This document shows positions 493-13,138 of a stretch of DNA of 18,645 nucleotides, in pieces. Below the pieces are notes generated by a model. The model saw only the letters and a program-made list of their open reading frames with translations. It searched no databases and was not told the DNA's origin. The position numbers and the translations under genes were made by a program. The DNA lies in the IMG/VR virus record IMGVR_UViG_3300029241_000184; one strand, written 5' to 3'. Origin of the DNA: a virus. Lineage: Duplodnaviria; Heunggongvirae; Uroviricota; Caudoviricetes. Position 1 is the stretch's first letter; every line of letters starts with the position of its first letter.

Positions 493-1722
493 TTATGCGG
501 CAATAACTTTGCATTTTTGAGACGAAACATAGTCACTCCACCATTGCATGAGAACCACCCGTTCAGTGAGATACTCTGCACGATTGTAGGCTGCAATTAT
601 TTCATCTTTCTTCGAGTGGGCAAGGGCGGCTTCTAAGACATCAGTCCTAAACTTGCCAGACTCCTCAGCAGCCGTTCTAGCAATGGATCGCATACCGTGA
701 GCTACAAGCTCACCTCCGAAACCCATACGGATTATGGCCGCATTAGCTGTTTGTTCATGCATGTGATTGAGTGGAGCTTTGATACTGGGGAACACCCACT
801 CTCTATGCCCGCTGATGACTTTCATTAAATCCAAAACTCGCAAAGCTTCTTTGCTCAGTGGAACTTTGTGAGGCTTCTTCATTTTCATAAACTCCGCCGG
901 GATGTTCCACATGCCAGTTTCAATATCAATATCTGACCATCTTGTGCGAACAGCTTCACCTGGGCGAACCCATGTGAGAAGTTGCCACTCAATCAGTAGC
1001 CTTGTTTCCAAACGGATAGAAGCATTGTTTAGAGCAACCAAGAAGCGAGGGAGTTCGGAAGGGGGTAATGCTGGCATATTCTGTTTTTTTGGCTTGCTGA
1101 ACCGTTGCCCCAGGTTGTCTGCCGGGTTGAATTCTATGAGTTCTTCTGTTGCTGCATAGCGGAAAATTTCATTCAGGCGGGATATGATGCGGCGAAGTGT
1201 TTCAAGGACACCTCGTTTTTCTATGGGTTCTAAATGCTGTTTAAGCATTTTAGGGCGAATCTCCTTAATTGGGGTATCACCCAATGTGGAAAAGATATTT
1301 CTCTCTAGGCTTCGCCAGATGTCGTTAGCATGATCTTGGGAGATGCCTGACGTTTTGACTTTCTCATCAAGCCACTTCTTGGCTACTGCTTGAAATGTAT
1401 GTTCCGTGGCATCTTTCAGTGCATTGGCTTTTTGGTTGTTATGAACTTGGGGGTCTATACCATTTGTAAGCAACGACAAGTATTCATCACGTAAAGCTCG
1501 TGCCTTCGCAAGTGTAAGGTGAGGATAGGTTCCTAAGCTCACCTTAGTTCGCTTTTTGGTCACAGGCACTGCATATCTGAAATACCAATTTTTCTTCCCT
1601 CCCTTCGCCAGGGGAGCGATTCGCAACAGCAAACCATCGCCGTCAAAAAGGTTAACCTCTTTTTCGGCAGGTTTGGTGCTTTTGATTTCAGTGTCAGTGA
1701 GCTTCTTAGCGATTTTGGCCAT
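493..1722 (-). CDS. int: Tyrosine recombinase, P4-family integrase (integrase of an older, neighbouring island)
   Basis: ORF 493..1803; preferred start is the in-frame ATG at 1722 (MAKIAKKLTDTEIK..., GAGGG about 10 nt upstream). N-terminus KLTDTEIK...DGDGLLL is typical of P4-like integrase arm-binding domains; C-terminus carries HGMRS and AYNRAEY, consistent with the H-x-x-R and catalytic Tyr boxes. Paralogous to the integrase at 11401..12591. Confidence 0.88.
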   Translation of the reverse strand: MAKIAKKLTDTEIKSTKPAEKEVNLFDGDGLLLRIAPLAKGGKKNWYFRYAVPVTKKRTKVSLGTYPHLTLAKARALRDEYLSLLTNGIDPQVHNNQKANALKDATEHTFQAVAKKWLDEKVKTSGISQDHANDIWRSLERNIFSTLGDTPIKEIRPKMLKQHLEPIEKRGVLETLRRIISRLNEIFRYAATEELIEFNPADNLGQRFSKPKKQNMPALPPSELPRFLVALNNASIRLETRLLIEWQLLTWVRPGEAVRTRWSDIDIETGMWNIPAEFMKMKKPHKVPLSKEALRVLDLMKVISGHREWVFPSIKAPLNHMHEQTANAAIIRMGFGGELVAHGMRSIARTAAEESGKFRTDVLEAALAHSKKDEIIAAYNRAEYLTERVVLMQWWSDYVSSQKCKVIAA

Positions 1723-1820
1723 GTTTGGGACCCTCGATTTTAGGACCCATCTTCGTGGGTCCCATTCAGGGTGCCATAACTCGTAGTTCTCAGCAATTCT
1801 CACTAGACTACAATAGACGT

Positions 1821-1854: not shown

Positions 1855-1888
1855 AGTAGACTTTACTGAACTTCAGTACATCAATATT

Positions 1889-1910
1889 TGGTGGGCTGGC
1901 GGAGTCTGAC
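1889..1910. other. Degenerate copy of the ssrA 3' end; likely attR of the P4-like satellite and junction between the two tandem islands
   Basis: tggtgggctggcggagtctgac versus the true ssrA 3' end tggtggagctggcgggagttgaac at 12775..12798 (about 20 of 24 positions with two 1-nt gaps), lying the same distance and order from the terminator-like hairpin as in the intact ssrA. Confidence 0.5.
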
Positions 1911-1961
1911 TTTGTCTTTTAATTGTCTGTATTTAATGGTTTTTTATTAAATTGAGATTTT

Positions 1962-1982
1962 GGATATACCTAAGCGTATACC
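1962..1982. repeat. Two GTATACC-type motifs (ggatatacc, cgtatacc); candidate integrase arm-type sites on the far arm
   Basis: Same heptamer family as the four copies at 12614..12661 next to int; acctaagcgtataccaat here versus acctaaacgtataccaat there. Confidence 0.4.
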
Positions 1983-2102
1983 AATTCTGCTTTGTAGGCA
2001 CAAAAATACAGTCATGCTGGTATGACAATTCCAACCCCGTCACAGCTTGTATCCATCTGGTCACACATGACAAAAGCAGGCAACCAATACTAAGAATTTA
2101 CT

Positions 2103-2762
2103 TTACGGCTCTTCGCTATTGGGGTTCTTAACTTTTTCCCATTCAATGCCCAACCCTTTAAATTTTTGTGCAAATGGGATTACTATGAGCGCAACACAAG
2201 CCCCTAATAGTGCCATTCTCTCAGTGGTTAAAAAATTAAATCGTATATCTGCAATTACTATAAGTAATAAGGCGACAGCAAGAAACCAAGTAACTCGTTG
2301 AAAAATATCCATCGTTTGAGATTTTTTCTGCCGAATATCATTTTTCCTAACTGCTGACTGCTCTGCGGTAAGGGCTCGAAAAGTTGGGAAAAGATTGAAA
2401 TCAGATTTAACTAATTCACCCGAATCACTGACTGAATACAGTGAAAATGGCAATGGGTTATTAGGCAGGGAGGATACGGTCACCAAGAAAAGTGGGATTT
2501 TTTCATTTCCAATTGCTTGTTTGTATCTTTTTAATTGATTTAGAGTGTTTTCGCTATGTGCAAATCTGTCTGACTTTATTTCAATAATAGCAAGATATTC
2601 TTTCTTTTCTGGATCTATAATTGCAAAGTCTGGTCTATATGTGTTTTTGCCATCGTTGGAGAAAAATGCTGGTTCGTATAATATAGAATCTTTGGTATAT
2701 CCTAGTGATAATAAGTATTCAGAGAATTTATTTTCCGCCTCTGAATGGTAATTGTTGTCCAT
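2103..2762 (-). CDS. Membrane-anchored protein with an N-terminal restriction-endonuclease-like (PD-(D/E)xK, HsdR-N-like) motif and two C-terminal transmembrane helices; AT-rich cargo gene
   Basis: 219-aa ORF with GAGAGGGA about 7 nt upstream of the ATG at 2762. N-terminal segment LGY...YRPDFAIIDPEKKEYLAIIEIKS carries a D ... E-I-K arrangement as in restriction-endonuclease-fold proteins; C-terminus has two hydrophobic stretches (WFLAVALLLIVIADI and ALLGACVALIVIPFA). Visibly AT-rich compared with the neighbouring primase gene. Confidence 0.7.
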   Translation of the reverse strand: MDNNYHSEAENKFSEYLLSLGYTKDSILYEPAFFSNDGKNTYRPDFAIIDPEKKEYLAIIEIKSDRFAHSENTLNQLKRYKQAIGNEKIPLFLVTVSSLPNNPLPFSLYSVSDSGELVKSDFNLFPTFRALTAEQSAVRKNDIRQKKSQTMDIFQRVTWFLAVALLLIVIADIRFNFLTTERMALLGACVALIVIPFAQKFKGLGIEWEKVKNPNSEEP

Positions 2763-2956
2763 TACAGTCCCTCTCTGCTGTGTGAAAACTAGTGAGCTAA
2801 ATTAATAAGGTAACTAAAAAACGCAAGAGATTCAATTGATTAACGAGTGATAGGTCAAGTCAAGGTCAAACTCGGCGATCATGATGGTTATCTTGTTGAA
2901 TCACAGCCAGACATGATGAATTTCTAGGTTGGAGAAAAAACTTTTTTTCAGGAAAA

Positions 2957-3058
2957 CTGTTCACACTGTTCACACTGTTCACACCGTTGTTTTTGCTTTT
3001 AATTTCATAGTGATACGTTGTGAATGGTTGGTAAACAGTGAACACTTTACTGTTCATT
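2957..3058. repeat. Iteron cluster: three tandem CTGTTCACA repeats (2957..2983) plus inverted and variant copies (gtgaaca 3038..3044, tgttcat 3052..3058); candidate ori-type alpha-binding iterons
   Basis: Tandem 9-bp repeats seen directly; the core TGTTCAC matches the P4 type I iteron octamer TGTTCACC that I recall as the alpha-protein binding site in P4 ori and crr. Lies immediately downstream of the alpha-like gene. Confidence 0.6.
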
Positions 3059-3108
3059 TTTGCCGTTTTGCAGGTAAAAAAAGACCGGCGATTGCCGGTC
3101 AGGGTAGA

Positions 3109-5442
3109 TTATTTTGCTACAGGGTCATCACATTTCGGCAGCCAGTCGGCGTTGCTTTCCTCTCTTAGTGTTAGATTGGTTTGTATGCCCTGATTTTTTC
3201 GGCGCTTCTCATAACTTAGCCCGTACTCTTTCAGCATAGCTGGCAGCCCCTTACCGAACATGGTGAGGCTCAGGGTGTTCCTGTAGCCGTGGGCCTCCAT
3301 ATACGCCAGATAGGCATGATACAGATACAGGCGCGGCTGACGCGGAATGATGTTGGCATTGCCAATATACATTCCCTCAGGCTCCGGCAGTGCTTCCAGA
3401 TAGCCGCAAAAATCAAATGTCGGGTCAGCATCGCGTTTAATACTGAGCGCCTCGTCCGAGTTCTGCTGTGACTGGAGCAGGGCGCGGGCGGTCATCGGGT
3501 CGCTGAACTTCTGCATAAGCTGCCGAACAATCACCGCCAGCTCACGGGCGATTTTATTCTTAAGCTGCGGGTCACGTTCCTCCGGGGCAATCTGTTCCGG
3601 GAAATGCAGAATCACCCGGCGCCGTGAGACACCGCCGCTACGGTCGGTAAAGCGCATCGGGTTATTGTTCACGGCCAGAATCACCGCTGGAATATGGGTG
3701 GAGTACGCATCCTTGTATTTCGGGTCAACGGAGACCGCATCCCCGCCGGTGATGGCCTTGAGTCCTGCCCCGTCACCACTCCATTTTTCCTGGTCAGGCA
3801 GGCGTATCAGCGAGAAGCCAATCAGCGCAGCGCGTTCACGCGGTGATTCCAGCGTTTCGATGGTGGCCGATGTGGCGTTATCTTCCCCGGCGAGCAGGGT
3901 CGCAATTTCGGCCAGAATACTTTTCCCGCTGCCACCCGGCCCGGTCACTTCGAGAAAGAGCTGCCAGTCGTAGCGGTTCGCCAGTACCATAAACAGGGCG
4001 GCAAGTATCACGTCGCGTTTTTCCGGTCGGCCACCGGCGGCACGGTCGAGCCAGCGCCAGAAATCCGGCGCATGGGTTTCCAGCGTTTCGCCCTCCACCG
4101 GTGGGGTAAAATCGACATCACAGAGTGTGCGCAGCCAGTGCGATTTATGATGCGGGCTGAAAGTACCGGTAGCGGTATCGAGTACGCCGTTACGAAAACC
4201 AATCAGACGGCGCGCCGGTGCGTCCTGCTGCGGAATAATCAGTTTCAGGGTCTCCACCACTGAGGCAATTTTCCCCGACGAGAACGGTGCGCGCAGACGC
4301 TGAAATAACCCGGCCACGTCGCGGGCAAAATCCGATGGCGGAATGATTTTCCATATACCGGCCTCATAGCGGGACAGGAGCTGGCCATTTGCGTCCACGG
4401 CCAGCGCTTCGCCGTAATGTTCATGCACCCGCATTGCCTTTTCACTGGTGCTCATGGCGGTAAATTCCGCCTCGCTCATGGTAGTGAAAGGACTGTCAGC
4501 CAGTGGCCGGATGGCGTCATAAATCGCTTTCCGCGTCGCCTCTTCGCCTTTCTGAACGAACGCATCATTCCAGTCACCGAACACCGGCGGCAGGGCAACA
4601 ACACCCTCACAGGCGTCTGCGGCCGCAGCGGCTTTTGTCTGGCCGGCGCCGTTAAGGTCACGGTCGGCGGCGAGGACAATCTGACAGGCCGGGTGTTTCT
4701 GACGGGCAAGGCTCGCCAGAGAAAAGAGGTTCACGGAGGACAGCGCCACCATGACGGTTTCGCTGGTCAGGTGATGTACGGTGAGTGCCGTCGCATAACC
4801 CTCCGCAATCCACAGGCGTTTTCCGGCCTGTTTTTTTCCTCCGATGACATGACATGTCCCTTTGACCTGACCGCCTTTCAGGGTGCGTTTGAGACCGTCA
4901 GCATTAATAAGCTGAAGGTTAACCAGTGCGCCGGTATCCTCATACAGCGGGACAACCACATCCCCGGCGCGGAACGTCACGCCGCCGGTTTTATGCATGA
5001 CTGTCAGTACCGGACATTCCCGGTCGGGGAACCCCTTGCGGGTGAGGTAGGCGTTGTCGGTGGCCGGGCGCGTTTTCTCCAGCAGTCTGACGGCCAGCGC
5101 GGCCGCCGCTTTGCGGTCGGCATCGGTTTCAGCCTCTGCGGCTGCCATCACTTCCGGGGCAACCGGCGACAGATTGCCGGTCACGGCGTTCACCTTCCCG
5201 GCGGCTTCTGACGGGGTCACGCCAAACACTTTTTCTACCAGCTTAAGCCCGTCACCCGCGCCGCACTGATTGCAGAACCACGTCCCGCGCCCTTCTTTAT
5301 CGTCAAAGCGAAAACGGTCAGAGCCGCCACACACCGGACAGGCCTGATGGCGGTTTTTAATCACCTTCACACCCAGCGCCGGAAGAATGCGCGGCCAGTG
5401 GCCGCACGCCTGTTTTACCGTTTCTGTTACGTTCATTTTCAT
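3109..5442 (-). CDS. P4 alpha-type primase/helicase (zinc-binding primase N-terminus plus helicase domain)
   Basis: ORF 3109..5493; preferred start at ATG 5442 (MKMNVTETV..., GAGGGAG upstream) giving 777 aa, the length of P4 alpha. N-terminal CPVCGG...CNQCG zinc-binding motif; Walker A-like GPGGSGKS in the C-terminal half. Confidence 0.9.
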   Translation of the reverse strand: MKMNVTETVKQACGHWPRILPALGVKVIKNRHQACPVCGGSDRFRFDDKEGRGTWFCNQCGAGDGLKLVEKVFGVTPSEAAGKVNAVTGNLSPVAPEVMAAAEAETDADRKAAAALAVRLLEKTRPATDNAYLTRKGFPDRECPVLTVMHKTGGVTFRAGDVVVPLYEDTGALVNLQLINADGLKRTLKGGQVKGTCHVIGGKKQAGKRLWIAEGYATALTVHHLTSETVMVALSSVNLFSLASLARQKHPACQIVLAADRDLNGAGQTKAAAAADACEGVVALPPVFGDWNDAFVQKGEEATRKAIYDAIRPLADSPFTTMSEAEFTAMSTSEKAMRVHEHYGEALAVDANGQLLSRYEAGIWKIIPPSDFARDVAGLFQRLRAPFSSGKIASVVETLKLIIPQQDAPARRLIGFRNGVLDTATGTFSPHHKSHWLRTLCDVDFTPPVEGETLETHAPDFWRWLDRAAGGRPEKRDVILAALFMVLANRYDWQLFLEVTGPGGSGKSILAEIATLLAGEDNATSATIETLESPRERAALIGFSLIRLPDQEKWSGDGAGLKAITGGDAVSVDPKYKDAYSTHIPAVILAVNNNPMRFTDRSGGVSRRRVILHFPEQIAPEERDPQLKNKIARELAVIVRQLMQKFSDPMTARALLQSQQNSDEALSIKRDADPTFDFCGYLEALPEPEGMYIGNANIIPRQPRLYLYHAYLAYMEAHGYRNTLSLTMFGKGLPAMLKEYGLSYEKRRKNQGIQTNLTLREESNADWLPKCDDPVAK

Positions 5443-5456
5443 CGTTGTTTTCTCCC

Positions 5457-5777
5457 TCAGTGCACTACCGGTACGGTGATGTGACGGGCGCAAAGCTCAT
5501 CCATCACGGCCAGCCCGAGAAAGGACAGCGACGGCGCGGCTTTGAGTGGACCGGCTTCCATTAAATCTTCCAGTAATGCACAGGCTATCTGGCGGCCTTT
5601 TTCCTCGCCGTGCTGGCGCAGGTAGAAGCCCTCCAGCTCGGTAGCGATGGCACTTTCCAGCGCGTCGAGGGTGAGGTTCGGGTAGCGGCGCTGGCGTTCG
5701 CACAGGGTCAGCCATGCACAGGCCACGGCGCGACGATACAGCGCGGCGCGTAATACGGGCGGTAATGGCTTTTTCAT
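5457..5777 (-). CDS. Hypothetical protein of the satellite early operon (106 aa)
   Basis: ORF whose start overlaps the stop of the upstream ORF (translational coupling), ending 15 nt before the alpha start; same strand and operon as the alpha gene. No recognisable motif. Confidence 0.55.
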
Positions 5778-6001
5778 ACGTTGCCCTCCCCGGTCAGCCA
5801 GTGCTGATTGCAGCGTTCAACCACGCCGTCGAGCTGGGCGGTCATGAGGTAAATCACGGAGGTGAGCTGTAACTGCTGCGCCGGGTCACGACGAACGGTG
5901 GCGCAGTCCTGTACCTGCATCAGGTCGCTGACGAGCTGGCCGACATTGCGCATATGCTCCAGACATTCGAGGTCACGGGCGGTAATGGTGGTGTGTCTCA
6001 T
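5774..6001 (-). CDS. Hypothetical small protein of the satellite early operon (75 aa)
   Basis: ORF with start/stop overlaps (ATGA) to both neighbours on the same strand, typical of coupled small genes in P4-like early operons. Confidence 0.5.
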
Positions 6002-6192
6002 GCGCGCACCTCCGCAACAGGCAGACGGCCAGCAAATGAGAGGACGTAATCGCGAACGAGGGAAAGGCGTGCGGCGTGCTCATCACCGGCAACGGTGCGG
6101 AGCATACAAATACGGGGTTTACGGTCTGCACGACGAACGGCGGCAAACACAAAAACAAATTGCGGGTGTAACGGGGTGAGGATAGTAGCCAT
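5998..6192 (-). CDS. Hypothetical small protein (64 aa), possibly Icd-like; short form of the 185-aa ORF
   Basis: Internal ATG at 6192 ([19 protein letters not shown]...) preceded by GGAGG about 8 nt upstream; the longer 5998..6555 extension is low-complexity and overlaps the AlpA-like gene, so the short form is preferred. The Icd-like label is a recollection of similar annotations, not verified. Confidence 0.45.
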
Positions 6193-6551
6193 GATGGCAG
6201 CCTCCATTGAGTAGCGGTTACTGCTACCACCGGAAACGCCAATTTCACTGGTGGCAGCCCGAACGGGGTTGGCGTAACCGGCCTCAATGGATACCGGCCA
6301 GCCCGAAGGCTGCCCCGCCCGGACTACCATTATCTTGCTGGAACCATGGTGTATAAAAAGACACCACAACCCGGAAAATGGGTGTGCCTGAGCTACGACG
6401 AAAAAAAAGACGCACGGCGCGTCTGGTGTCGCCATTGAGTTTCGCGGAACGCCAATTCCGGCTGTCGATTTTGCGACAGCGGGAAAACTATACCTGGAAA
6501 CGGCGAAAAGAAGCAAGCCAGAAAAAGGGGCTGAATGCTGAACGGTCATCA

Positions 6552-6818
6552 TCATGCGTCACAGCCCCGGTTGCGTTCGGCAATGCGATCTGCCATCCAT
6601 GCGGTGATTTCAGACTGCGCCCACGCCACGTTTTTACCGCCCAGGCTGATTTGTTTCGGGAAGGCTTCCCGGCTGATGAGGTCATAAATGGTCGACCGGG
6701 ACAGGCCACACAGATGCATCACTTCGGGCAGGCGGATAAAGCGCTCCTGAACGGCATCAGAAACCGGCATCAGCGGCGCGGCAGGGGCAGAAGACGGGGA
6801 AGAAAAAGCGGTGTGCAT
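6552..6818 (-). CDS. alpA: AlpA-family phage transcriptional regulator (small DNA-binding, excisionase-like)
   Basis: [54 protein letters not shown] matches the AlpA/excisionase-like helix-turn-helix family; GAGGT upstream of the ATG at 6818. An alternative start at 6770 (MPVSD) is possible. Confidence 0.8.
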
Positions 6819-7087
6819 CGGGCTACCTCACAAAGTCCATACAGTGCCGGTCGTGTCCGTCCGGCTTCGGGTAGCTCTCTATTTTGTGAATATTTTCCCT
6901 CAGGGCAACAAGTCTTTTTATAGCTCCTCGTCACACAACAGAGCGATTTTTGAACAATGGCAAACGCTGGCAAACAGATGCAAATCAATGCATTACATTG
7001 CAGTAACTTTAAGTACTTTCACTTATATATTTCCTCATAATTAATCGGAAAAAAGACTAAATCCGACACCCCAGGCAAAAAGCAAAA

Positions 7088-7192
7088 GGTGAACAGTAGT
7101 GAACAGTCGGTGAACAGTTACACCCTCAACTGTTCACCCTTTATCTTACTGTATTACTTATCTTTTTCTTTTCAGTGAACAGTAGTGAATAG
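7088..7192. repeat. Second iteron cluster: GGTGAACAGT x3 (7088..7117), inverted TGTTCACC (7131..7138), GTGAACAG (7175..7182) and variant gtgaatag; candidate crr-type alpha-binding iterons in the divergent early/late control region
   Basis: Direct and inverted copies of the same octamer as at 2957..3058, about 4.1 kb away; I recall that P4 ori and crr are separated by about 4.5 kb. Confidence 0.6.
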
Positions 7193-7268
7193 TTATAAGT
7201 AAAAAAACAAACAGTGAGTAAGGTTTTCCTGAGACCTTTCTCTGGCCAGCCGGGTTTTAAGGTCTGTT

Positions 7269-7286
7269 TGTGCCATTTTTGCCACA
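7269..7286 (+). promoter_or_regulatory. TGT-N12-ACA dyad upstream of the sid-like gene; candidate Ogr/Delta activator site of the late promoter
   Basis: TGTgccatttttgccACA about 75-90 nt upstream of the ATG at 7359; P2/P4 late promoters carry a TGT-N12-ACA element near -55. No clear -10 identified, so low confidence. Confidence 0.3.
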
Positions 7287-7358
7287 ACGGCAATGAATCG
7301 TGTTGTTGTGTCTGGCGCGGCAGAATCTCCTCAGGTTGAAACGAAGAGGAGACCCGAC

Positions 7359-8096
7359 ATGACTCAGACCGCTGTTATTCCCGACTACCTTAAACCTGCA
7401 ATGGAACGCCTTGAGACTGCCCGCTCGGCGCATCTCGTCAATGCCAGCCGTATGGATGAAACCACGACGGCCATCAGCCAGGTGCAAACGCAAAAAAAGG
7501 AACTGGAGCAGGAAAACGGCAATGATTCCGGCGCATGGCGCGCCGCCTTTCGTGCCGGTGGTGCTGTCATTACCGACGAGCTGAAACAACGCCATCTGGC
7601 GCGCGTGGCACGGCGGGAACTGGCGCAGGAATGTGACAGCATGAACGAGGTACTGTCTTTTGAGCTGGACAGGCTCAAAGGAGCCTGTGACCGCACGGCC
7701 AGAGCATACCGTCAGGCACATCACGGCGTCCTCAGTCAGTATGCAGAGCATGAACTTGATGCTGCCCTGCGTGAAAGCTGCGGTGCCCTCATCAGAGCAA
7801 TGAAACTCAACATACTGGTTCTGAATAATCCGCTTGCTAATACGACCGGGCATCAGGGATATATCGAACCGGAAAAAGTTGTAATGCAGCAGGTGAAAGC
7901 GTGGCTTGAACAGGCCGTAAAGGGCTGCAATATCCGTCTGACCGATGAACCGGTGCTGTTTAAAACAGGGCTGTCGGCTTCCACACTGCCGCATATGGAA
8001 CATGACGTTGCGACCATGCCCGGTCAGCGAAAAGTCTGGCAGGAAAAAATGTGGGAACGTGAAGCTGACCTGAAAGCACGGGGGTTATTGTCATGA
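7359..8096 (+). CDS. sid: Sid-like protein (P4 capsid size determination / external scaffold), first gene of the late operon
   Basis: ORF 7293..8096 trimmed to ATG 7359 (MTQTAVIPDYLKP..., AAGAGGAG upstream) giving 245 aa, close to P4 Sid (244 aa); position immediately upstream of the Ogr/Delta-like and psu-like genes matches the P4 sid-delta-psu order. Called from size and synteny only. Confidence 0.55.
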   Translation: MTQTAVIPDYLKPAMERLETARSAHLVNASRMDETTTAISQVQTQKKELEQENGNDSGAWRAAFRAGGAVITDELKQRHLARVARRELAQECDSMNEVLSFELDRLKGACDRTARAYRQAHHGVLSQYAEHELDAALRESCGALIRAMKLNILVLNNPLANTTGHQGYIEPEKVVMQQVKAWLEQAVKGCNIRLTDEPVLFKTGLSASTLPHMEHDVATMPGQRKVWQEKMWEREADLKARGLLS

Positions 8097-8338
8097 TGCG
8101 CTGCCCTTTCTGCCGCACGGCGGCACACGTTCGCACCAGCCGCTATATGTCTGACAGCGTCAAAGAGAGTTACCTGCAGTGCCAGAATGTGCACTGCTCG
8201 GCGACATTCAAAACGCATGAGTCCATCTTTGAAGTGATACGTTCGCCGGTCGTCGATGAGAAACCCGCGCCGGTGCCGACAGCCCCCGTGGCACCCCGTC
8301 GGGTAAAAGGCTGCTACAGCTCGCCGTTCCGCCATTAA
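8093..8338 (+). CDS. Ogr/Delta-family zinc-finger late-gene transcriptional activator
   Basis: MMRCPFCRTAAHVRTSRYMSDSVKESYLQCQNVHCSATFKTHES has the C-x2-C ... C-x4-C arrangement and RTSRY / QCQN motifs of P2 Ogr and P4 Delta; start overlaps the stop of the sid-like gene. Confidence 0.85.
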   Translation: MMRCPFCRTAAHVRTSRYMSDSVKESYLQCQNVHCSATFKTHESIFEVIRSPVVDEKPAPVPTAPVAPRRVKGCYSSPFRH

Positions 8339-8354
8339 TCAGGAGAGACAACCC

Positions 8355-8921
8355 GTGACCACTCTGACCTTACAGCAGGCCTATGACGCCTGTCAGACGA
8401 ACAAAACCGCGTGGCTGAACCGTAAAACCGAACTGGCCGCCGCAATGCAGGAATATCAGGAATTATTGCTGGATGACAATGTATCAGGCTCCCGCAGATT
8501 ACAGATGCTGCGTGACCTGATTGACGTAAAAAAATGGGAAGTTAATCAGGCCGCCGGTCGCTACATCTTCTCGCATGAGGAGGTGCAGCGCATCAGCATC
8601 CGTAACCGGCTGCATGATTTTATGCAGCAGAACGGCGCAGAGCTGGCCGCCGCACTGGCACCGGAGCTGATGGGGATTAAAAACCAGCCCGCGATGATAA
8701 AAAATCGCGCGCTTGACCGTTCAGTCTCTTACCTGAGAGAAGCTCTTTCCGTCTGGCTGACCGCTGGAAATGACATTAATTATTCTGCACTGGATAACGA
8801 CATCTTAACGGCCATCGGATACAGGCCTGACGCGCCTTCGCGGGATGATAATCGTGAAAAATTCACCCCTGCACAGAACATGATTTACACCCGTCGACGC
8901 GCCGGACTGGCCGCGCAGTAG
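8355..8921 (+). CDS. psu: Psu-like protein (P4 polarity suppression / capsid decoration)
   Basis: 188 aa (P4 Psu is 190 aa), third gene of the sid-delta-psu type operon; N-terminal region ...QQAYDACQTNKTAWLNRKTELAAA... and QAAGRYI resemble Psu as I recall it. Confidence 0.75.
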   Translation: MTTLTLQQAYDACQTNKTAWLNRKTELAAAMQEYQELLLDDNVSGSRRLQMLRDLIDVKKWEVNQAAGRYIFSHEEVQRISIRNRLHDFMQQNGAELAAALAPELMGIKNQPAMIKNRALDRSVSYLREALSVWLTAGNDINYSALDNDILTAIGYRPDAPSRDDNREKFTPAQNMIYTRRRAGLAAQ

Positions 8922-8967
8922 TCTGTCAAAAAATCCCTGTAAATCCCGTCATTTTTCCCGAATTTAG

Positions 8968-8994
8968 CCATGCATCCCTAAGGTGCATGGTTTT
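8968..8994 (+). terminator. Candidate rho-independent terminator after the psu-like gene
   Basis: Inverted repeat ccatgca / tgcatgg with a 9-nt loop followed by tttt. Confidence 0.4.
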
Positions 8995-9094
8995 GCATGC
9001 GTTTTCCCGACCCTGCACTCCCTGCCAGCGCCAGTTGCGGCGCGGCCTGAGGCCACCTTTGCACCTGCATTAAAAGCGGTCCCTTAAGCGGGCA

Positions 9095-9113
9095 GGCGTG
9101 GCGGGGAGAGCAT
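9095..9113. other. cos-like site (P2/186/P4-type 19-nt cohesive end sequence)
   Basis: ggcgtggcggggagagcat differs at one position from the phage 186 cohesive end GGCGTGGCGGGGAAAGCAT as I recall it, and at three from P2 (GGCGAGGCGGGGAAAGCAC); lies just downstream of psu, where cos sits in P4. Confidence 0.55.
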
Positions 9114-9375
9114 TGCGCGCTAAGTTAAAGATACTTTTAATTTTACAACTACGTTGTGATATCTTTTTAACTCGCTAATTCAATAGTGATAAAACAATTT
9201 TTTATAGCTAATAAGAATCAATTCCAGACTAACAATCGTCAAAAACTATGTTTTGTGAATGGCTATCTAAAAATACTGGCTTAATTATTTGACGTGATCT
9301 AAAGTACTGATGAAATTATTATACTGATTTAATTTTTTAACTGCTAAAAACATTAACAAAAAATAAGGGATTCAC

Positions 9376-11361
9376 ATGGCAGAGAAATCATTTAATGTAG
9401 AAGTACAGATGGATTATTTAGATAAGGTTTCTAAATCTTCTGCATTACAAGCAATCGCTGAGTTGGTATGGAATGCCTTAGATGCTGATGCTGAAAATGT
9501 ATATGTTGATTTGACAGAGTCTGAATTAGGACTCTCGCATATATTTATCAGGGATGATGGTAATGGTATTCCCTATGAGAATGCAGAAAAATTATTTAGT
9601 TCACTGGGCGGATCATGGAAAAAAGACAAGGTTTTATCAGAAAGAAAATCTCGTTTTTTACACGGAAAAGAAGGGCAGGGACGTTTTAAGGCATTCTCAA
9701 TAGGTCGATATATTGAGTGGGATACTACTTATTTACTTGATGATGTATATTATGAATATAAAATAAAAGGAATAGCTGATAATAAGAAAAAGATTTCAGT
9801 TTCTGATAAGGTAGTATCAAGTGAAGTTAAATCAGGAACAGTTGTTTCTATATTGGAATTGGTGAAAAACTTCACCTCTTTGACACCTCAAAAACTATCT
9901 GAGTTTCTTTCCACTACACTTGCTTTATATCTTAGTAAATACCCATCCGTAAAAGTATTTGTAAATCGAGAACAAATCGATCCAACAGCACAGATTTTAT
10001 TTGATACAAGCTATAAATTAGATGATGTAGTTTATTGTGATGAATTACATTCATATGAGTTACAAGTTATTGAATGGAAGTCAGCTAAAGAAAATGAGAT
10101 TTTTTTATGCGACAAAGAAGGTTTTCCCTTAATAAGTTATGAGAAGAAAATTAGAGGGACTGGTACATATTCTTATTCTGTTTATTTGAAGTCTACACAT
10201 TTGACCAAACTTTCCCATGAGGGTACTTTGTCGCTCATGGATTTAGAGCCTTCTTTAAGCCCTGTATTAAATAAAGTCGAAGGTTTGATAAAGGAACACT
10301 TCCGGAAAAGAGATCATGAAAAGTCAAGGGAGTTAATTGATAAATGGAAAAATGAAGGTGTTTATCCGTATGTTGGTAAGGCCGAAAATATTGTTGAGGA
10401 TGCTGAAAGAAAAGTATTCGATATTATGGCCATCAATGTTATAAAATACATACCACAATTTGATAATGGCGATCTTAAACTTAAGAAATTTCAGTTTAAA
10501 TTACTCAAGCATATTGTTGGGAGTTGCCCTGATGACTTGAGAACTATATTAGAGGAGGTTCTCTCGCTTCCTAAGGAAAAACAAGCTGAATTGGCTGAGA
10601 TATTAAGGGATGCCTCATTGTCAGCTGTTATTAGTGTTTCCAAAATAATTACTGATAGATTGAAGTTCATATCTGGGCTTGAGAATGTATTATTTCATCC
10701 GAATACAAGAAAAGTATTCAAAGAGAGAAGTCAGCTTCATAAAATAATGGCGGATAATACATGGTTTTTTGGTGAGTCTTTTACATTGAGTGTCAATGAT
10801 AAGTCACTAACTGAAGTATTAAAAGTACATTTGGAAAAGCAAGGGATTGATATTCCAGTTGATGAGAAAGTAACTAGGATAGATGGTAGTGTAGGTATTG
10901 TTGATTTAATGCTTACTAGAAGTATAGGCAAAAATTACCCAGATGAGCGTGAGCATATTATTATCGAATTAAAGGCACCTAAAGTAAATATAGGTCAATC
11001 AGAAATAGAACAGGTTAAATCCTATGCGTATGCAGTTGCTGAAGACGCAAGATTTAATGGTTTAAAAACAAAGTGGAACTTCTGGGTTATATCGAATGAG
11101 CTCACAACTTATGCTCTCAGAGAATTAAAACAAAAAAACCTTCCTGAAGGTGCAATATATCAAGCTGAAGAAATGACTATTTGGATAAAAACTTGGTCCC
11201 AACTTATTCAAGAGAACAAACATAGATTGGGTTTTCTACAGAATCAGCTTAATATTTCGTATGACCGTGAAGATGGACTACAGTTCTTAAAGCAAAAGTA
11301 TGCTGAGTACACTGAGGGCGTTGTATTTGAAAATGAATCACAGGATGAGTATATAGATTAA
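9376..11361 (+). CDS. 661-aa GHKL-type (HATPase_c, Bergerat-fold) ATPase fused to a C-terminal PD-(D/E)xK-like nuclease motif; candidate single-gene anti-phage defense protein carried as satellite cargo
   Basis: Single uninterrupted ORF with AAGGGA 6 nt upstream of the ATG. N-terminus: E29-x3-N33-A-x-D36-A (N box; E29 codon at 9460), D60-D-G-N-G64-I (G1 box, 9556..9567), G97-K-E-G-Q-G102 (G2 box, 9664..9681). C-terminus: GIVD510LML ... IIIE531LK533 (D at 10903..10905, E-L-K at 10966..10974) in the arrangement of PD-(D/E)xK nucleases. Strongly AT-rich with A/T-ending codons, unlike the flanking P4 core genes. Confidence 0.85.
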   Translation: MAEKSFNVEVQMDYLDKVSKSSALQAIAELVWNALDADAENVYVDLTESELGLSHIFIRDDGNGIPYENAEKLFSSLGGSWKKDKVLSERKSRFLHGKEGQGRFKAFSIGRYIEWDTTYLLDDVYYEYKIKGIADNKKKISVSDKVVSSEVKSGTVVSILELVKNFTSLTPQKLSEFLSTTLALYLSKYPSVKVFVNREQIDPTAQILFDTSYKLDDVVYCDELHSYELQVIEWKSAKENEIFLCDKEGFPLISYEKKIRGTGTYSYSVYLKSTHLTKLSHEGTLSLMDLEPSLSPVLNKVEGLIKEHFRKRDHEKSRELIDKWKNEGVYPYVGKAENIVEDAERKVFDIMAINVIKYIPQFDNGDLKLKKFQFKLLKHIVGSCPDDLRTILEEVLSLPKEKQAELAEILRDASLSAVISVSKIITDRLKFISGLENVLFHPNTRKVFKERSQLHKIMADNTWFFGESFTLSVNDKSLTEVLKVHLEKQGIDIPVDEKVTRIDGSVGIVDLMLTRSIGKNYPDEREHIIIELKAPKVNIGQSEIEQVKSYAYAVAEDARFNGLKTKWNFWVISNELTTYALRELKQKNLPEGAIYQAEEMTIWIKTWSQLIQENKHRLGFLQNQLNISYDREDGLQFLKQKYAEYTEGVVFENESQDEYID

Positions 11362-11371
11362 CATAATTGAA

Positions 11372-11402
11372 AGGCTCGCCAGTTTATTCTGGCGAGTTTC
11401 TT
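11372..11402 (+). terminator. Rho-independent terminator after the cargo gene, convergent with the end of int
   Basis: Stem ctcgccag / ctggcgag (8 bp) with a 6-nt loop, followed by tttctt. Confidence 0.5.
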
Positions 11403-12591
11403 AAAGACTGGATACTTTATTACCCCACCAATTCATTAATTCTATTCTTTGCGGAAGATATATAGAGCGATTATAAGCTCTTCGTACTTCATCTTTATAA
11501 CTATGAGCTAGTGCTGCCTCAATAACATCAGCATTGAATCCTGCTTCATTCATGGCAGTACTGGCTATAGAACGTAAACCATGTGCAACAAGCTTTCCAC
11601 CATAACCAATTCTCTTCAGCGCAGCATTAGCAGTCTGGCTATTCATTGGCAGCTTAGGGTCATTTCTGCTAGGAAAAACATGTTCTCGATGGGCACTGAT
11701 TGGCTTCATCACTTCTAAAATTTCTAATGCTTGAGGAGACAAAGGTACGATGTGCTCTCGTTTAGCCTTCATCCGTTCGGCTGGAATCGTCCAAAGCTTC
11801 GCATCAAGATCGATCTCTTCCCACCGAGCTCCGGAAGCCTCAGAAGGACGCACAAGGGTCAGGAGCTGCCACTCAATTAGACAGCGAGTCGAAACAGATA
11901 GATTCGACATGACTAGAGAACGCATCAGCTTTGGCAATTCCTCTGGCCGCAGCGTCGGCATATTTTGCTTTTTGGGCTTCTCAAAGGCCATCCCAACTCC
12001 TGAGGCTGGGTTCGCATCAATCAGACCCGTGTTTACGGCATAAATCATTATCTCGTTAATGCGTTGCACCAGTCGACGTACAGTCTCAAGCGCCCCACGA
12101 GCTTTGATGGGCTCAAGAGCTTCAACCAGTGTCCGGGCTTTGATTTGCTGAACAGGGATCTCACCGATGGCAGGGAATACATCTTTCTCCAGTGAGCGCC
12201 AAATGTCTTTTGCGTAATCAGGGGTAACGCTTTTGCTTTTGAGCTGGAACCAGTTAGCGGCGACCGTTGAAAAAATACTGTCCAGTGCGATTTGCTGCTG
12301 TTCCTCTGCAACTTCAGCTTGAATCTGTGGGTCGATTCCATTGGCTAATAAGGCAAGGTAATCAGCTCTTAACCCTCGGGCATCAGCAAGCGATAGGGCG
12401 GGGAAGGCTCCGAGTCCCATCATTGTCCGCTGTTTTGTTGCCGGACGTTGATAACGGAAACGCCAGAGCTTTTTGCCGCTGGTTTTCACTATCAGGAAAA
12501 GCCCATCGCCATCATGTAGCGTTAGATCCTTCTCTAGCGCTTTAGCGCGCAGAACTTCGGTGTTGGTCAGGGGGCGTGTTGTCCGTGCCAC
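11401..12591 (-). CDS. int: Tyrosine recombinase, P4-family integrase of the satellite, adjacent to ssrA
   Basis: 396-aa ORF; N-terminal LTLHDGDGLFL...GKKLWRFRY as in P4-type integrases; C-terminal HGLRS and AYNRSIY catalytic boxes; same orientation as ssrA and immediately downstream of it. Confidence 0.92.
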   Translation of the reverse strand: MARTTRPLTNTEVLRAKALEKDLTLHDGDGLFLIVKTSGKKLWRFRYQRPATKQRTMMGLGAFPALSLADARGLRADYLALLANGIDPQIQAEVAEEQQQIALDSIFSTVAANWFQLKSKSVTPDYAKDIWRSLEKDVFPAIGEIPVQQIKARTLVEALEPIKARGALETVRRLVQRINEIMIYAVNTGLIDANPASGVGMAFEKPKKQNMPTLRPEELPKLMRSLVMSNLSVSTRCLIEWQLLTLVRPSEASGARWEEIDLDAKLWTIPAERMKAKREHIVPLSPQALEILEVMKPISAHREHVFPSRNDPKLPMNSQTANAALKRIGYGGKLVAHGLRSIASTAMNEAGFNADVIEAALAHSYKDEVRRAYNRSIYLPQRIELMNWWGNKVSSL

Positions 12592-12613
12592 TGTGGCCGC
12601 TCCTTCATGAATT

Positions 12614-12661
12614 GGTATACGCTTTTAGGTATACATCCTACCGTATACCTAAACGTATACC
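12614..12661. repeat. Four direct copies of a GTATAC(C) motif at 12- to 14-bp spacing between the int start and the ssrA terminator; candidate integrase arm-type sites
   Basis: ggtatac (12614), ggtatac (12628), cgtatacc (12642), cgtatacc (12654); the same motif recurs at 1962..1982 at the other end of the element. Confidence 0.45.
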
Positions 12662-12707
12662 AATAATCACCGGATTTAGCCGGATGCTCTCGGACAACTA
12701 CAGACAC

Positions 12708-12742
12708 AAAAAAGCCCACAGGGCTTGTGCCGTGCGGGCTTT
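12708..12742 (-). terminator. ssrA rho-independent terminator
   Basis: On the minus strand, stem aagcccgcacggcacaagccctgtgggctt followed by tttttt, about 33 nt downstream of the mature tmRNA 3' end. Confidence 0.7.
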
Positions 12743-12774
12743 CAGGATTTCACCGGACGTATCCGGATCATAAT

Positions 12775-13138
12775 GTGGTGGAGCTGGCGGGAGTTGAACC
12801 CGCGTCCGAAATTCCTACATCCTCGGTACTACATGCTTAGTCAGTCTTTATATTCGCTTGCCAGCTGCGGACGGACACGCCACTAACAAACTAGCCTGAT
12901 TAAGTTTTAACGCTTCAACCCCAGGCAGGGCTTCCACGCGATCTCTTTTGGGTTTGACCTCTCTTGATCCCCGTCCTAAGAGCGGAGGCTAGGGAGAGAG
13001 GGCTCTAAGCAGGTTATTAAGCTGCTAAAGCGTAGTTTTCGTCGTTTGCGACTATTTTTTGCGGCTTTTTACGAGGCCAACCGCCCCTCGGCATGCACCT
13101 TGGGTTTCGCAAATCCCGTCGAATCCAGAATCAGCCCC
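12775..13138 (-). ncRNA. ssrA: tmRNA (SsrA, transfer-messenger RNA)
   Basis: Minus strand reads GGGGCTGATTCTGGATTCGACGGG ... GGAGTTGAACCCGCCAGCTCCACCA; internal tag reading frame at 13017..13049 (minus) encodes ANDENYALAA followed by a stop. Length about 363 nt; ends are within a few nt. Confidence 0.95.

What the first reader, a model, noticed from the sequence alone, without database searches (positions are those of the whole stretch)
9095..9113. cos-like site differing by one base from the recalled phage 186 cohesive end
ggcgtggcggggagagcat sits just downstream of psu, where P4 carries cos. An intact cos would allow packaging by a P2/186-type terminase, so the cargo genes could spread by helper-mediated transduction. 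The single difference from the recalled 186 sequence may or may not be tolerated.
Basis: partly seen in the sequence, partly recalled or inferred. Interest (0 to 1): 0.45.

Follow-up and report, generated by a model that had tools for sequence, protein, structure and literature searches.

The report
Packaging (cos) site of P4-like satellite
The 19 bases are the DNA-packaging cut site of an apparently complete P4-like satellite prophage in E. coli, and the one base that differs from phage 186 is a common natural variant, so this is an ordinary, probably working, site.

Summary
GGCGTGGCGGGGAGAGCAT lies at 9095-9113. It is 18/19 identical to the true phage 186 cohesive end and 16/19 to P2/P4. It is in exact register with the ends of the P4 genome record, 173 nt after the psu stop codon.

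[quoted passage not shown] The host element (about 1888-12790, about 10.9 kb, integrated at ssrA) looks complete. It has int, att copies, alpha primase, ori and crr iterons, immunity RNAs, alpA, sid, delta, psu, and one low-GC cargo gene directly right of cos.

The differing base (position 14, A to G) is one of only three naturally variable positions (5, 14, 19). The exact 19-mer was the majority form (51 of 76) in satellites sampled through psu. It also occurs at the native cos position of 19 P2-like phage contigs. Helpers whose large terminases are 97-98% identical use A, T or G at position 14.

Most likely this is a working cos. Cleavage and packaging are inferred, not shown. The kind is already known, so interest is low. 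One curiosity: G14 is mostly found in satellites and T14 only in helpers.

The parts
9095..9113 (+). 19-nt cos core (predicted 5'-protruding cohesive end), GGCGTGGCGGGGAGAGCAT
   Evidence: Read directly. 18/19 identical to 186 and 16/19 to P2/P4. In register with the ends of the P4 record. Single occurrence, chance expectation 0.01.
9066..9120 (+). 55-bp conserved cos block (-29 to +26), containing CTGCAT.AAA, AAGCGGGCA, the 19-mer and TGCGCGC
   Evidence: 39 positions are at least 95% conserved in both satellites (n=75) and helpers (n=81), and the window matches all 39. In the helper sample only the flank positions are unbiased, because the search pattern fixed 16 positions of the 19-mer. The block's extent equals the 55-bp P2/P4 cos homology cited from Ziermann and Calendar 1990 in PMC9594776 and PMC3931495.
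8355..8921 (+). psu (polarity suppression and capsid decoration protein)
   Evidence: Pfam Psu, E=1.4e-87. 71% nucleotide identity to P4 psu. In nearly all of 76 relatives cos starts 176 nt after the end of the psu coding match.
8093..8338 (+). delta (Ogr/Delta late-gene activator)
   Evidence: Pfam Ogr_Delta, E=5.6e-21.
7359..8096 (+). sid (capsid size determination)
   Evidence: 64% identity to P4 Sid over 240 aa, E=2e-114.
7089..7181 (.). ori-like cluster of alpha-protein iterons (TGTTCAC)
   Evidence: 5 of the 10 TGTTCAC copies in the window lie here. The window total is 10 against 2.2 expected, and 0 of 200 shuffles reached 10. Same position as the P4 ori with its type 1 repeats.
6247..6480 (-). 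P4-type immunity RNA region (C4 antisense RNA and isrK)
   Evidence: Rfam C4, 82.9 bits, and isrK, 74.5 bits; both are above their gathering scores.
6552..6818 (-). alpA-like regulator/excisionase
   Evidence: Pfam Phage_AlpA, E=3e-20.
3109..5493 (-). alpha primase-helicase
   Evidence: Pfam Zn_Ribbon_Prim, Toprim_3, D5_N and Pox_D5. RefSeq relatives are annotated as primase-helicase.
2958..3044 (.). crr-like iteron cluster next to the 3' end of alpha
   Evidence: 4 TGTTCAC copies, at the same relative place as the P4 crr.
9376..11361 (+). Cargo gene in the cos-adjacent hotspot: 661-aa GHKL-type ATPase with a weak C-terminal HSDR_N_2 match
   Evidence: Pfam HATPase_c_3, E=6e-15. Only weak REase_II hits in PADLOC and a weak BbrUII/HgiDII hit in NCBIfam. 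GC is 0.30-0.35 against about 0.53 to the left of cos.
11401..12591 (-). Integrase of the satellite
   Evidence: Pfam Arm-DNA-bind_3, Phage_int_M and Phage_integrase. NCBIfam PRK09692, 582 bits.
12776..12790 (.). att copy at the 3' end of ssrA (TGGTGGAGCTGGCGG)
   Evidence: tmRNA gene at 12776-13138 on the minus strand. Sequence read.
1888..1901 (.). Distal, imperfect att copy (TGGTGG-GCTGGCGG). Together with the ssrA copy it bounds an element of about 10.9 kb.
   Evidence: Sequence read. Homology to strain EcPF15 begins at window 1894. I assigned the boundary by eye from a short imperfect repeat.

Best explanation
This is the functional cos (cohesive-end, terminase recognition and cleavage) site of an apparently complete P4-like satellite prophage integrated at ssrA. 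Shown here: the sequence, its register with P4, the conserved 55-bp block, and the gene content of the element. Inferred from what is established for P4 and P2: when a P2-family helper is present, the satellite excises through int and alpA and circularises. It then replicates through alpha, ori and crr, and uses delta, sid and psu to obtain small capsids. The helper terminase (gpM and gpP homologues) recognises the 55-bp block on the monomeric circle and makes staggered nicks that leave the 19-nt 5' overhang GGCGTGGCGGGGAGAGCAT. The resulting linear genome of about 10.9 kb would start with the cargo ATPase gene and int and end with sid, delta and psu, as in the P4 map. The cargo gene is therefore carried along. 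The A-to-G difference at position 14 is most likely neutral or tolerated, because it lies at one of the three positions of the 19-mer that vary naturally.
For: Identity and register with the P4, 186 and P2 ends. Chance expectation is 0.01. All 39 positions conserved in both helpers and satellites are matched. The exact 19-mer occurs in 108 IMG/VR contigs: 87 in satellite context and 19 in helper context, 11 of the latter with portal gene Q about 190-204 nt to the right as in P2 and 186. In a sample chosen through psu, not through cos, 51 of 76 satellites carry exactly this 19-mer, and all variation falls at positions 5, 14 and 19, apart from one satellite that also differs at position 12. It is present in about 50 species-representative Enterobacterales genomes, most with psu starting about 724-741 nt to the left, in satellites whose Psu is only 49-98% identical. 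Helpers with A14, T14 and G14 have large terminases 97-98% identical. G14 helpers carry at least three distinct small-terminase lineages. The element is complete: int, att, alpha, iterons, C4 and isrK RNAs, alpA, sid, delta and psu, about 10.9 kb against 11.6 kb for P4. Homology and GC content break exactly after TGCGCGC, as at the known cos-adjacent hotspot (PMC9122126). From my own knowledge, not checked here: P4, which has the P2-type end, is also packaged with 186 as helper although those ends differ at positions 5 and 19.
Against: There is no experimental evidence for this allele, and no paper in the searchable library contains the G14 19-mer. No G14 helper close to an E. coli prophage or to a deposited phage was found (best 81% and 84% identity). 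In E. coli the satellite would therefore meet helpers with A14. Only 93 of 5426 complete E. coli genomes have this cos region. I could not check whether the source genome carries a helper. The primary mutational study of P2/P4 cos (Ziermann and Calendar 1990) could not be read, so I do not know whether position 14 was ever mutated.
Confidence: 0.82

Rival explanations
1. The site is a real cos, but position 14 sets specificity. It would be cut efficiently only by the terminases of the minority of helpers that themselves carry G14, so in E. coli (P2-type and 186-type helpers, both A14) the satellite would be mobilised poorly or not at all.
For: Helpers with G14 exist and share with G14 satellites the left-flank signature GCACCTGCATTAAAAGCG, against GCAACTGCATTAAAACCG in the P2 and 186 classes. 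Their small terminase subunits are only 63-78% identical to those of the A14 helpers sampled. This cos region is rare in E. coli, 93 of 5426 genomes.
Against: G14 is carried by about half or more of the satellites sampled, but by roughly 4% of helpers on my rough estimate. Strict matching would leave most G14 satellites without a helper. Large terminases 97-98% identical accompany A, T and G at position 14. G14 helpers themselves have three divergent gpM lineages.
Confidence: 0.12
2. The site is an inactive relic in a domesticated, immobile satellite. The sequence is retained only by recent descent.
For: P4-like elements are often cryptic. The distal att copy is imperfect, with one base missing. 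A second integrase lies just outside the element.
Against: All the core genes tested are full-length. The iterons and immunity RNAs are present. The unit length is right for a P4-size capsid. The 55-bp block is intact at every conserved position, and is held constant across satellites whose Psu has diverged to about 50% identity.
Confidence: 0.05
3. The 19-mer is a chance GC-rich match with no relation to cos.
For: About 12 of the 62 exact matches in species-representative genomes lie in unrelated GC-rich MAGs without cos flanks, so the bare 19-mer does occur by chance in very large databases.
Against: Expectation in this window is 0.01. The flanks, the register with P4 and the gene context all agree with cos.
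Confidence: 0.01

Closest known systems
cos of satellite phage P4 (NC_001609, junction of the record's ends)
   Same: Same place in the genome: after psu and before the non-essential/cargo region and int. Same 55-bp block. 49/61 identical over -35 to +26, and 15/25 further left, which is satellite-specific similarity.
   Different: The 19-mer differs at positions 5, 14 and 19 (16/19). Position -1 is A, not G, and position +20 is T, not C. The cargo to the right is unrelated: gop, beta and cII in P4, a GHKL ATPase here.
cos of phage 186 (NC_001317), a P2-like helper
   Same: 18/19 in the cohesive end. A at -1 and TGCGCGC at +20 to +26. 53/61 over -35 to +26, the best of the three references.
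   Different: A14 in 186, G14 here. The left flank has GCAACTGCATTAAAACCG in 186 and GCACCTGCATTAAAAGCG here. In 186 the portal gene follows cos; here a cargo gene follows.
cos of phage P2 (NC_001895)
   Same: Same conserved block; 48/61 identical. Its terminase is the classical enzyme that packages P4.
   Different: Three differences in the 19-mer, plus G at -1.
cos-adjacent defence hotspot of P4-like satellites (Rousset et al. 2022, PMC9122126)
   Same: A variable gene cassette between cos/psu and int. Homology among satellites ends right after cos. Related E. coli satellites at the same ssrA locus are annotated with other candidate cargo, such as retron St85, NACHT, AAA ATPase and DUF4747.
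   Different: The cargo here matches no PADLOC system. A defence function is not shown.
G14 cos of uncultivated P2-like phages in IMG/VR (for example L142, L128, L211)
   Same: Identical 19-mer, and the same left-flank signature GCACCTGCATTAAAAGCG in most of these contigs.
   Different: These are helpers, with the portal and terminase genes to the right of cos. None is close to an E. coli prophage or to a deposited phage.

Membership tests
P2/186/P4-family cos site | 19-nt GC-rich core GGCG-N-GGCGGGGA-N-AGCA-Y | tested here: met
   All 16 invariant positions match. The three variable positions carry T5, G14 and T19, all seen in natural sites.
P2/186/P4-family cos site | Conserved flanks that make up the 55-bp block (CTGCAT.AAA at -29 to -21, AAGCGGGC at -9 to -2, TGCGCGC at +20 to +26) | tested here: met
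   39 of 39 positions that are at least 95% conserved in both helpers and satellites are matched.
P2/186/P4-family cos site | Position in a satellite genome: downstream of psu, at the edge of the variable region | tested here: met
   173 nt after the psu stop codon. In nearly all of 76 relatives cos starts 176 nt after the end of the psu coding match. GC content and homology break at +26.
P2/186/P4-family cos site | Cleavage by a P2-family terminase that leaves 19-nt 5' overhangs, and packaging of the DNA that carries it | not testable with these tools
   This needs virion-end mapping or a transduction assay.
P2/186/P4-family cos site | Same allele used by a helper phage at its own cos | tested here: met
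   19 IMG/VR contigs have the exact 19-mer next to the portal and terminase genes. None is from E. coli as far as I could tell.
P4-like satellite | Core genes psu, sid, delta, alpha, alpA and int in the P4 order | tested here: met
   The order matches the P4 annotation.
P4-like satellite | epsilon (helper derepression) gene | not tested
   Small ORFs at 5457-6001 gave no NCBIfam match. They were not compared with P4 epsilon.
P4-like satellite | alpha-binding iterons at ori and crr, and the CI-type immunity RNA | tested here: met
   TGTTCAC clusters at 2958-3044 and 7089-7181. Rfam C4 and isrK.
P4-like satellite | Unit length that fits the small (P4-size) capsid, bounded by att repeats | tested here: inconclusive
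   About 10.9 kb between TGGTGGAGCTGGCGG (12776) and TGGTGG-GCTGGCGG (1888). The repeat is short and imperfect, and excision was not shown.

The most novel reading that the evidence does not exclude
Position 14 of the cohesive end may be partitioned between parasite and host phage. G14 is carried mainly by satellites, T14 only by helpers, and A14 by both. This could mean that satellites are selected for a cos allele that differs from that of their helpers. Possible reasons are competing differently for terminase or limiting recombination with the helper at the only shared sequence. The alternative is a neutral founder effect.
Probability: 0.1. Interest if true: 0.55.

Novelty: new member of a known kind. 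Interest (0 to 1): 0.2.

Why it matters
It matters mainly for annotation. The site marks this 10.9-kb island as a probably mobilisable P4-like satellite. Its single low-GC cargo gene, a GHKL-type ATPase of unknown role in the known defence hotspot, could therefore move between Enterobacterales inside helper-derived capsids. For the scan as a whole, a one-base departure from the textbook 186 end should not be read as decay. G14 was the commonest allele in the satellites I sampled through psu, which were the 80 closest relatives of this window's Psu. The uneven distribution of position-14 alleles between satellites and helpers is a small open question. It could be tested with cos-plasmid transduction assays.

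Tried and rejected
1. My first phage-database query with a G14 helper used the wrong coordinates and hit the replication gene instead of cos. The corrected megablast gave no match. A distant search with the G14 helper consensus found no deposited phage above 93% identity. Records that start at cos would split the match, so absence is not proven.
2. I tried to read Ziermann and Calendar 1990, Christie and Calendar 2016, and Sun et al. 1991 (the phiR73 cos). None is held, and the phiR73 record is not in the phage collection. I therefore could not find out whether a P2-packaged satellite already carries G14.
3. The repeat finder with a 12-nt seed found no att repeat. I found the short imperfect att copies by reading the sequence.
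4. The terminator scan found nothing between psu and cos.
5. Chance match: rejected.
6. I considered whether G14 marks a single recent clone. I rejected this because it occurs in satellites with Psu identities from 49% to 98% and in many genera.

Full report
**Observation.** The 19-mer GGCGTGGCGGGGAGAGCAT is at window 9095-9113 on the + strand. I fetched the reference genomes. The 186 record begins GGCGTGGCGGGGAAAGCAT, and the P2 and P4 records begin GGCGAGGCGGGGAAAGCAC. The window differs from 186 at one base (position 14, A to G) and from P2/P4 at three (positions 5, 14, 19). It is the only match in the window at up to three mismatches, against 0.01 expected by chance. A blastn alignment to P4 runs through psu and ends at the last base of the linear P4 record, opposite window 9093/9094. 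The 19-mer is therefore in exact register with the P4 cohesive end.

**Context.**
- The window is E. coli chromosome around ssrA, smpB and recN.
- Between an att copy at the 3' end of ssrA (TGGTGGAGCTGGCGG, 12776-12790) and an imperfect copy at 1888-1901 lies an element of about 10.9 kb with the gene order of P4.
- The order is: int (11401-12591), one cargo gene (9376-11361), cos, psu (8355-8921; Pfam Psu E=1e-87), delta (8093-8338), sid (7359-8096; 64% identical to P4 Sid), alpA, an Ash/Icd-like ORF, and alpha primase-helicase (3109-5493).
- The Ash/Icd-like ORF overlaps Rfam C4 and isrK RNAs, the P4-type immunity region.
- The alpha-binding iteron TGTTCAC clusters where P4 has ori (7089-7181) and crr (2958-3044). 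The window holds 10 copies against 2.2 expected.
- There is one cos only. As in P4, packaging would need excision to a monomeric circle. That step rests on established P2/P4 biology, not on anything shown here.

**The cos block.**
- Left of the 19-mer the window reads ...TGCACCTGCATTAAAAGCGGTCCCTTAAGCGGGCA, and right of it TGCGCGC. P4, P2 and 186 have the same framework.
- I compared 75 satellites sampled through psu homology, that is independently of cos, with 81 helper phages. Thirty-nine positions between -29 and +26 are at least 95% conserved in both sets, and the window matches every one.
- In the helper sample only the flank positions are unbiased, because the search pattern fixed 16 positions of the 19-mer.
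- That span is 55 bp. This is the size of the P2/P4 cos homology attributed to Ziermann and Calendar 1990 in PMC9594776 and PMC3931495.
- Beyond +26, satellites share no sequence. In the window GC drops from about 0.53 to about 0.33 there.
- This is the cos-adjacent hotspot described by Rousset et al. 2022 (PMC9122126).

**Is the one-base difference tolerated?** Four lines of comparative evidence bear on this.
1. The exact 19-mer occurs in 108 IMG/VR contigs. Eighty-seven are in satellite context and 19 in helper context. In 11 of the 19 the portal gene lies 190-204 nt to the right, as in P2 and 186.
2. In the psu-anchored sample, 51 of 76 satellites have exactly this 19-mer, 12 have the P2/P4 form, 7 have G5/G14, and 3 have the 186 form. 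All variation lies at positions 5, 14 and 19, apart from one satellite that also differs at position 12. That sample is the 80 closest relatives of this window's Psu (68-99% identity), so '51 of 76' describes this clade, not all P4-like satellites.
3. In species-representative genomes the 19-mer, with proper flanks, occurs in about 50 Enterobacterales. These include Enterobacter, Citrobacter, Kluyvera, Serratia, Cedecea, Pectobacterium and Raoultella. Their satellites have Psu only 49-98% identical to the window's. About 12 further hits in GC-rich unrelated MAGs lack the flanks and are chance matches.
4. A portal-anchored helper sample showed that position 14 also varies in helpers. Fifty-seven of 80 have GGCGAGGCGGGGATAGCAC (T14), 15 have the 186 form and 2 have G14. 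Large terminases 97-98% identical accompany A, T and G at position 14. G14 helpers carry at least three divergent small-terminase lineages.

Position 14 is therefore a naturally variable site, not a conserved contact. G14 was the majority satellite allele in my sample.

**Limits.**
- None of this is an assay.
- The G14 helpers I examined are not close to any E. coli prophage (81% or less) or to any deposited phage (84% or less).
- Only 93 of 5426 complete E. coli genomes have this cos region.
- In E. coli the satellite would therefore meet A14 helpers. Its mobilisation depends on tolerance of the mismatch, or on helpers that arrive from other genera.
- From my own knowledge, not checked here: P4 (P2-type end) is also packaged with 186 as helper, although those ends differ at two positions.
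- The primary mutational paper could not be read. No paper in the searchable library contains the G14 19-mer.
- A distant P2-like phage, Smp131, has GGCGTGGCGGGGAGACGAG, which also carries G at position 14 (PMC3931495).

**Mechanism.** The helper terminase recognises the 55-bp block on the excised, replicated satellite circle. It nicks both strands 19 nt apart and packages one unit of about 10.9 kb into a Sid-restricted small capsid. The linear genome would run cos, cargo, int, att, crr, alpha, ori, sid, delta, psu, cos. The sequence anatomy is shown here; every step of the mechanism is inferred.
- Best explanation, confidence 0.82.
- Main rival, 0.12: position 14 sets helper specificity, so mobilisation in E. 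coli is poor.
- Inactive relic, 0.05.
- Chance match, about 0.01.

**Novelty.** The kind of feature is well known: the cos of a P4-like satellite next to a defence hotspot. This is a new member that carries a common but, as far as I could search, undiscussed allele.

The only mildly surprising result is how position-14 alleles are distributed. T14 was found in at least 103 helpers and no satellites. G14 was found in 87 satellites and 19 helpers. A14 occurs in both.

Noticed in passing
window 9376-11361 (+): The single cargo gene in the cos-adjacent hotspot encodes a 661-aa protein. It has an N-terminal GHKL ATPase domain (HATPase_c_3) and a weak C-terminal HSDR_N_2 match, which I take to be nuclease-like. 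GC is about 0.33. It matches no named PADLOC system, and has only weak similarity to REase_II and BbrUII/HgiDII models. It is a candidate uncharacterised defence gene.
   Followed up: partly
window 2103-2762 (-): A 219-aa protein with an HSDR_N_2 domain lies between the crr-like iterons and the distal att copy. This may be a second accessory locus at the other end of the satellite. It has no NCBIfam or PADLOC match.
   Followed up: partly
window 493-1803 (-) and 1823-1858 versus 12709-12747: A second tyrosine integrase (436 aa, same PRK09692 family) lies just outside the satellite. It is preceded by a near-duplicate of a hairpin-like sequence that I read as the ssrA-proximal terminator. This suggests a tandem arrangement of two ssrA-targeting islands. 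The closest E. coli relative (EcPF15) has ypjA there instead.
   Followed up: partly
window 6247-6334 and 6403-6480 (-): Rfam C4 antisense RNA and isrK lie inside the ORF annotated as Ash/Icd-like (5998-6555). This is the P4-type RNA immunity region.
   Followed up: no
IMG/VR loci: Position 14 of the cohesive end is partitioned. T14 was seen in at least 103 helper contigs and no satellites. G14 was seen in 87 satellites and 19 helpers. A14 occurs in both.
   Followed up: partly
L287 and L305 (both from IMGVR_UViG_641228506_000005, 21.6 kb): Two P4-like satellites lie on one contig and have different cos alleles: G14 in L287 and the 186 type in L305.
   Followed up: no
L135, L136, L168, L181, L183, L198: In several G14 helper contigs the portal gene starts 1.8-2.9 kb to the right of cos, not about 190 nt. 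This implies an inserted cassette between cos and the portal gene, the position where retrons Ec67 and Ec86 were reported in 186-related prophages (Dodd and Egan 1996, cited in PMC6868368).
   Followed up: no
window 9066-9094 compared with helper and satellite consensus: Most G14 sites in both helpers and satellites share left-flank bases C at -31 and G at -19 (GCACCTGCATTAAAAGCG). The P2 and 186 classes have A and C there. The whole cos block thus appears to travel as a unit between helpers and satellites, consistent with recombination at cos.
   Followed up: partly
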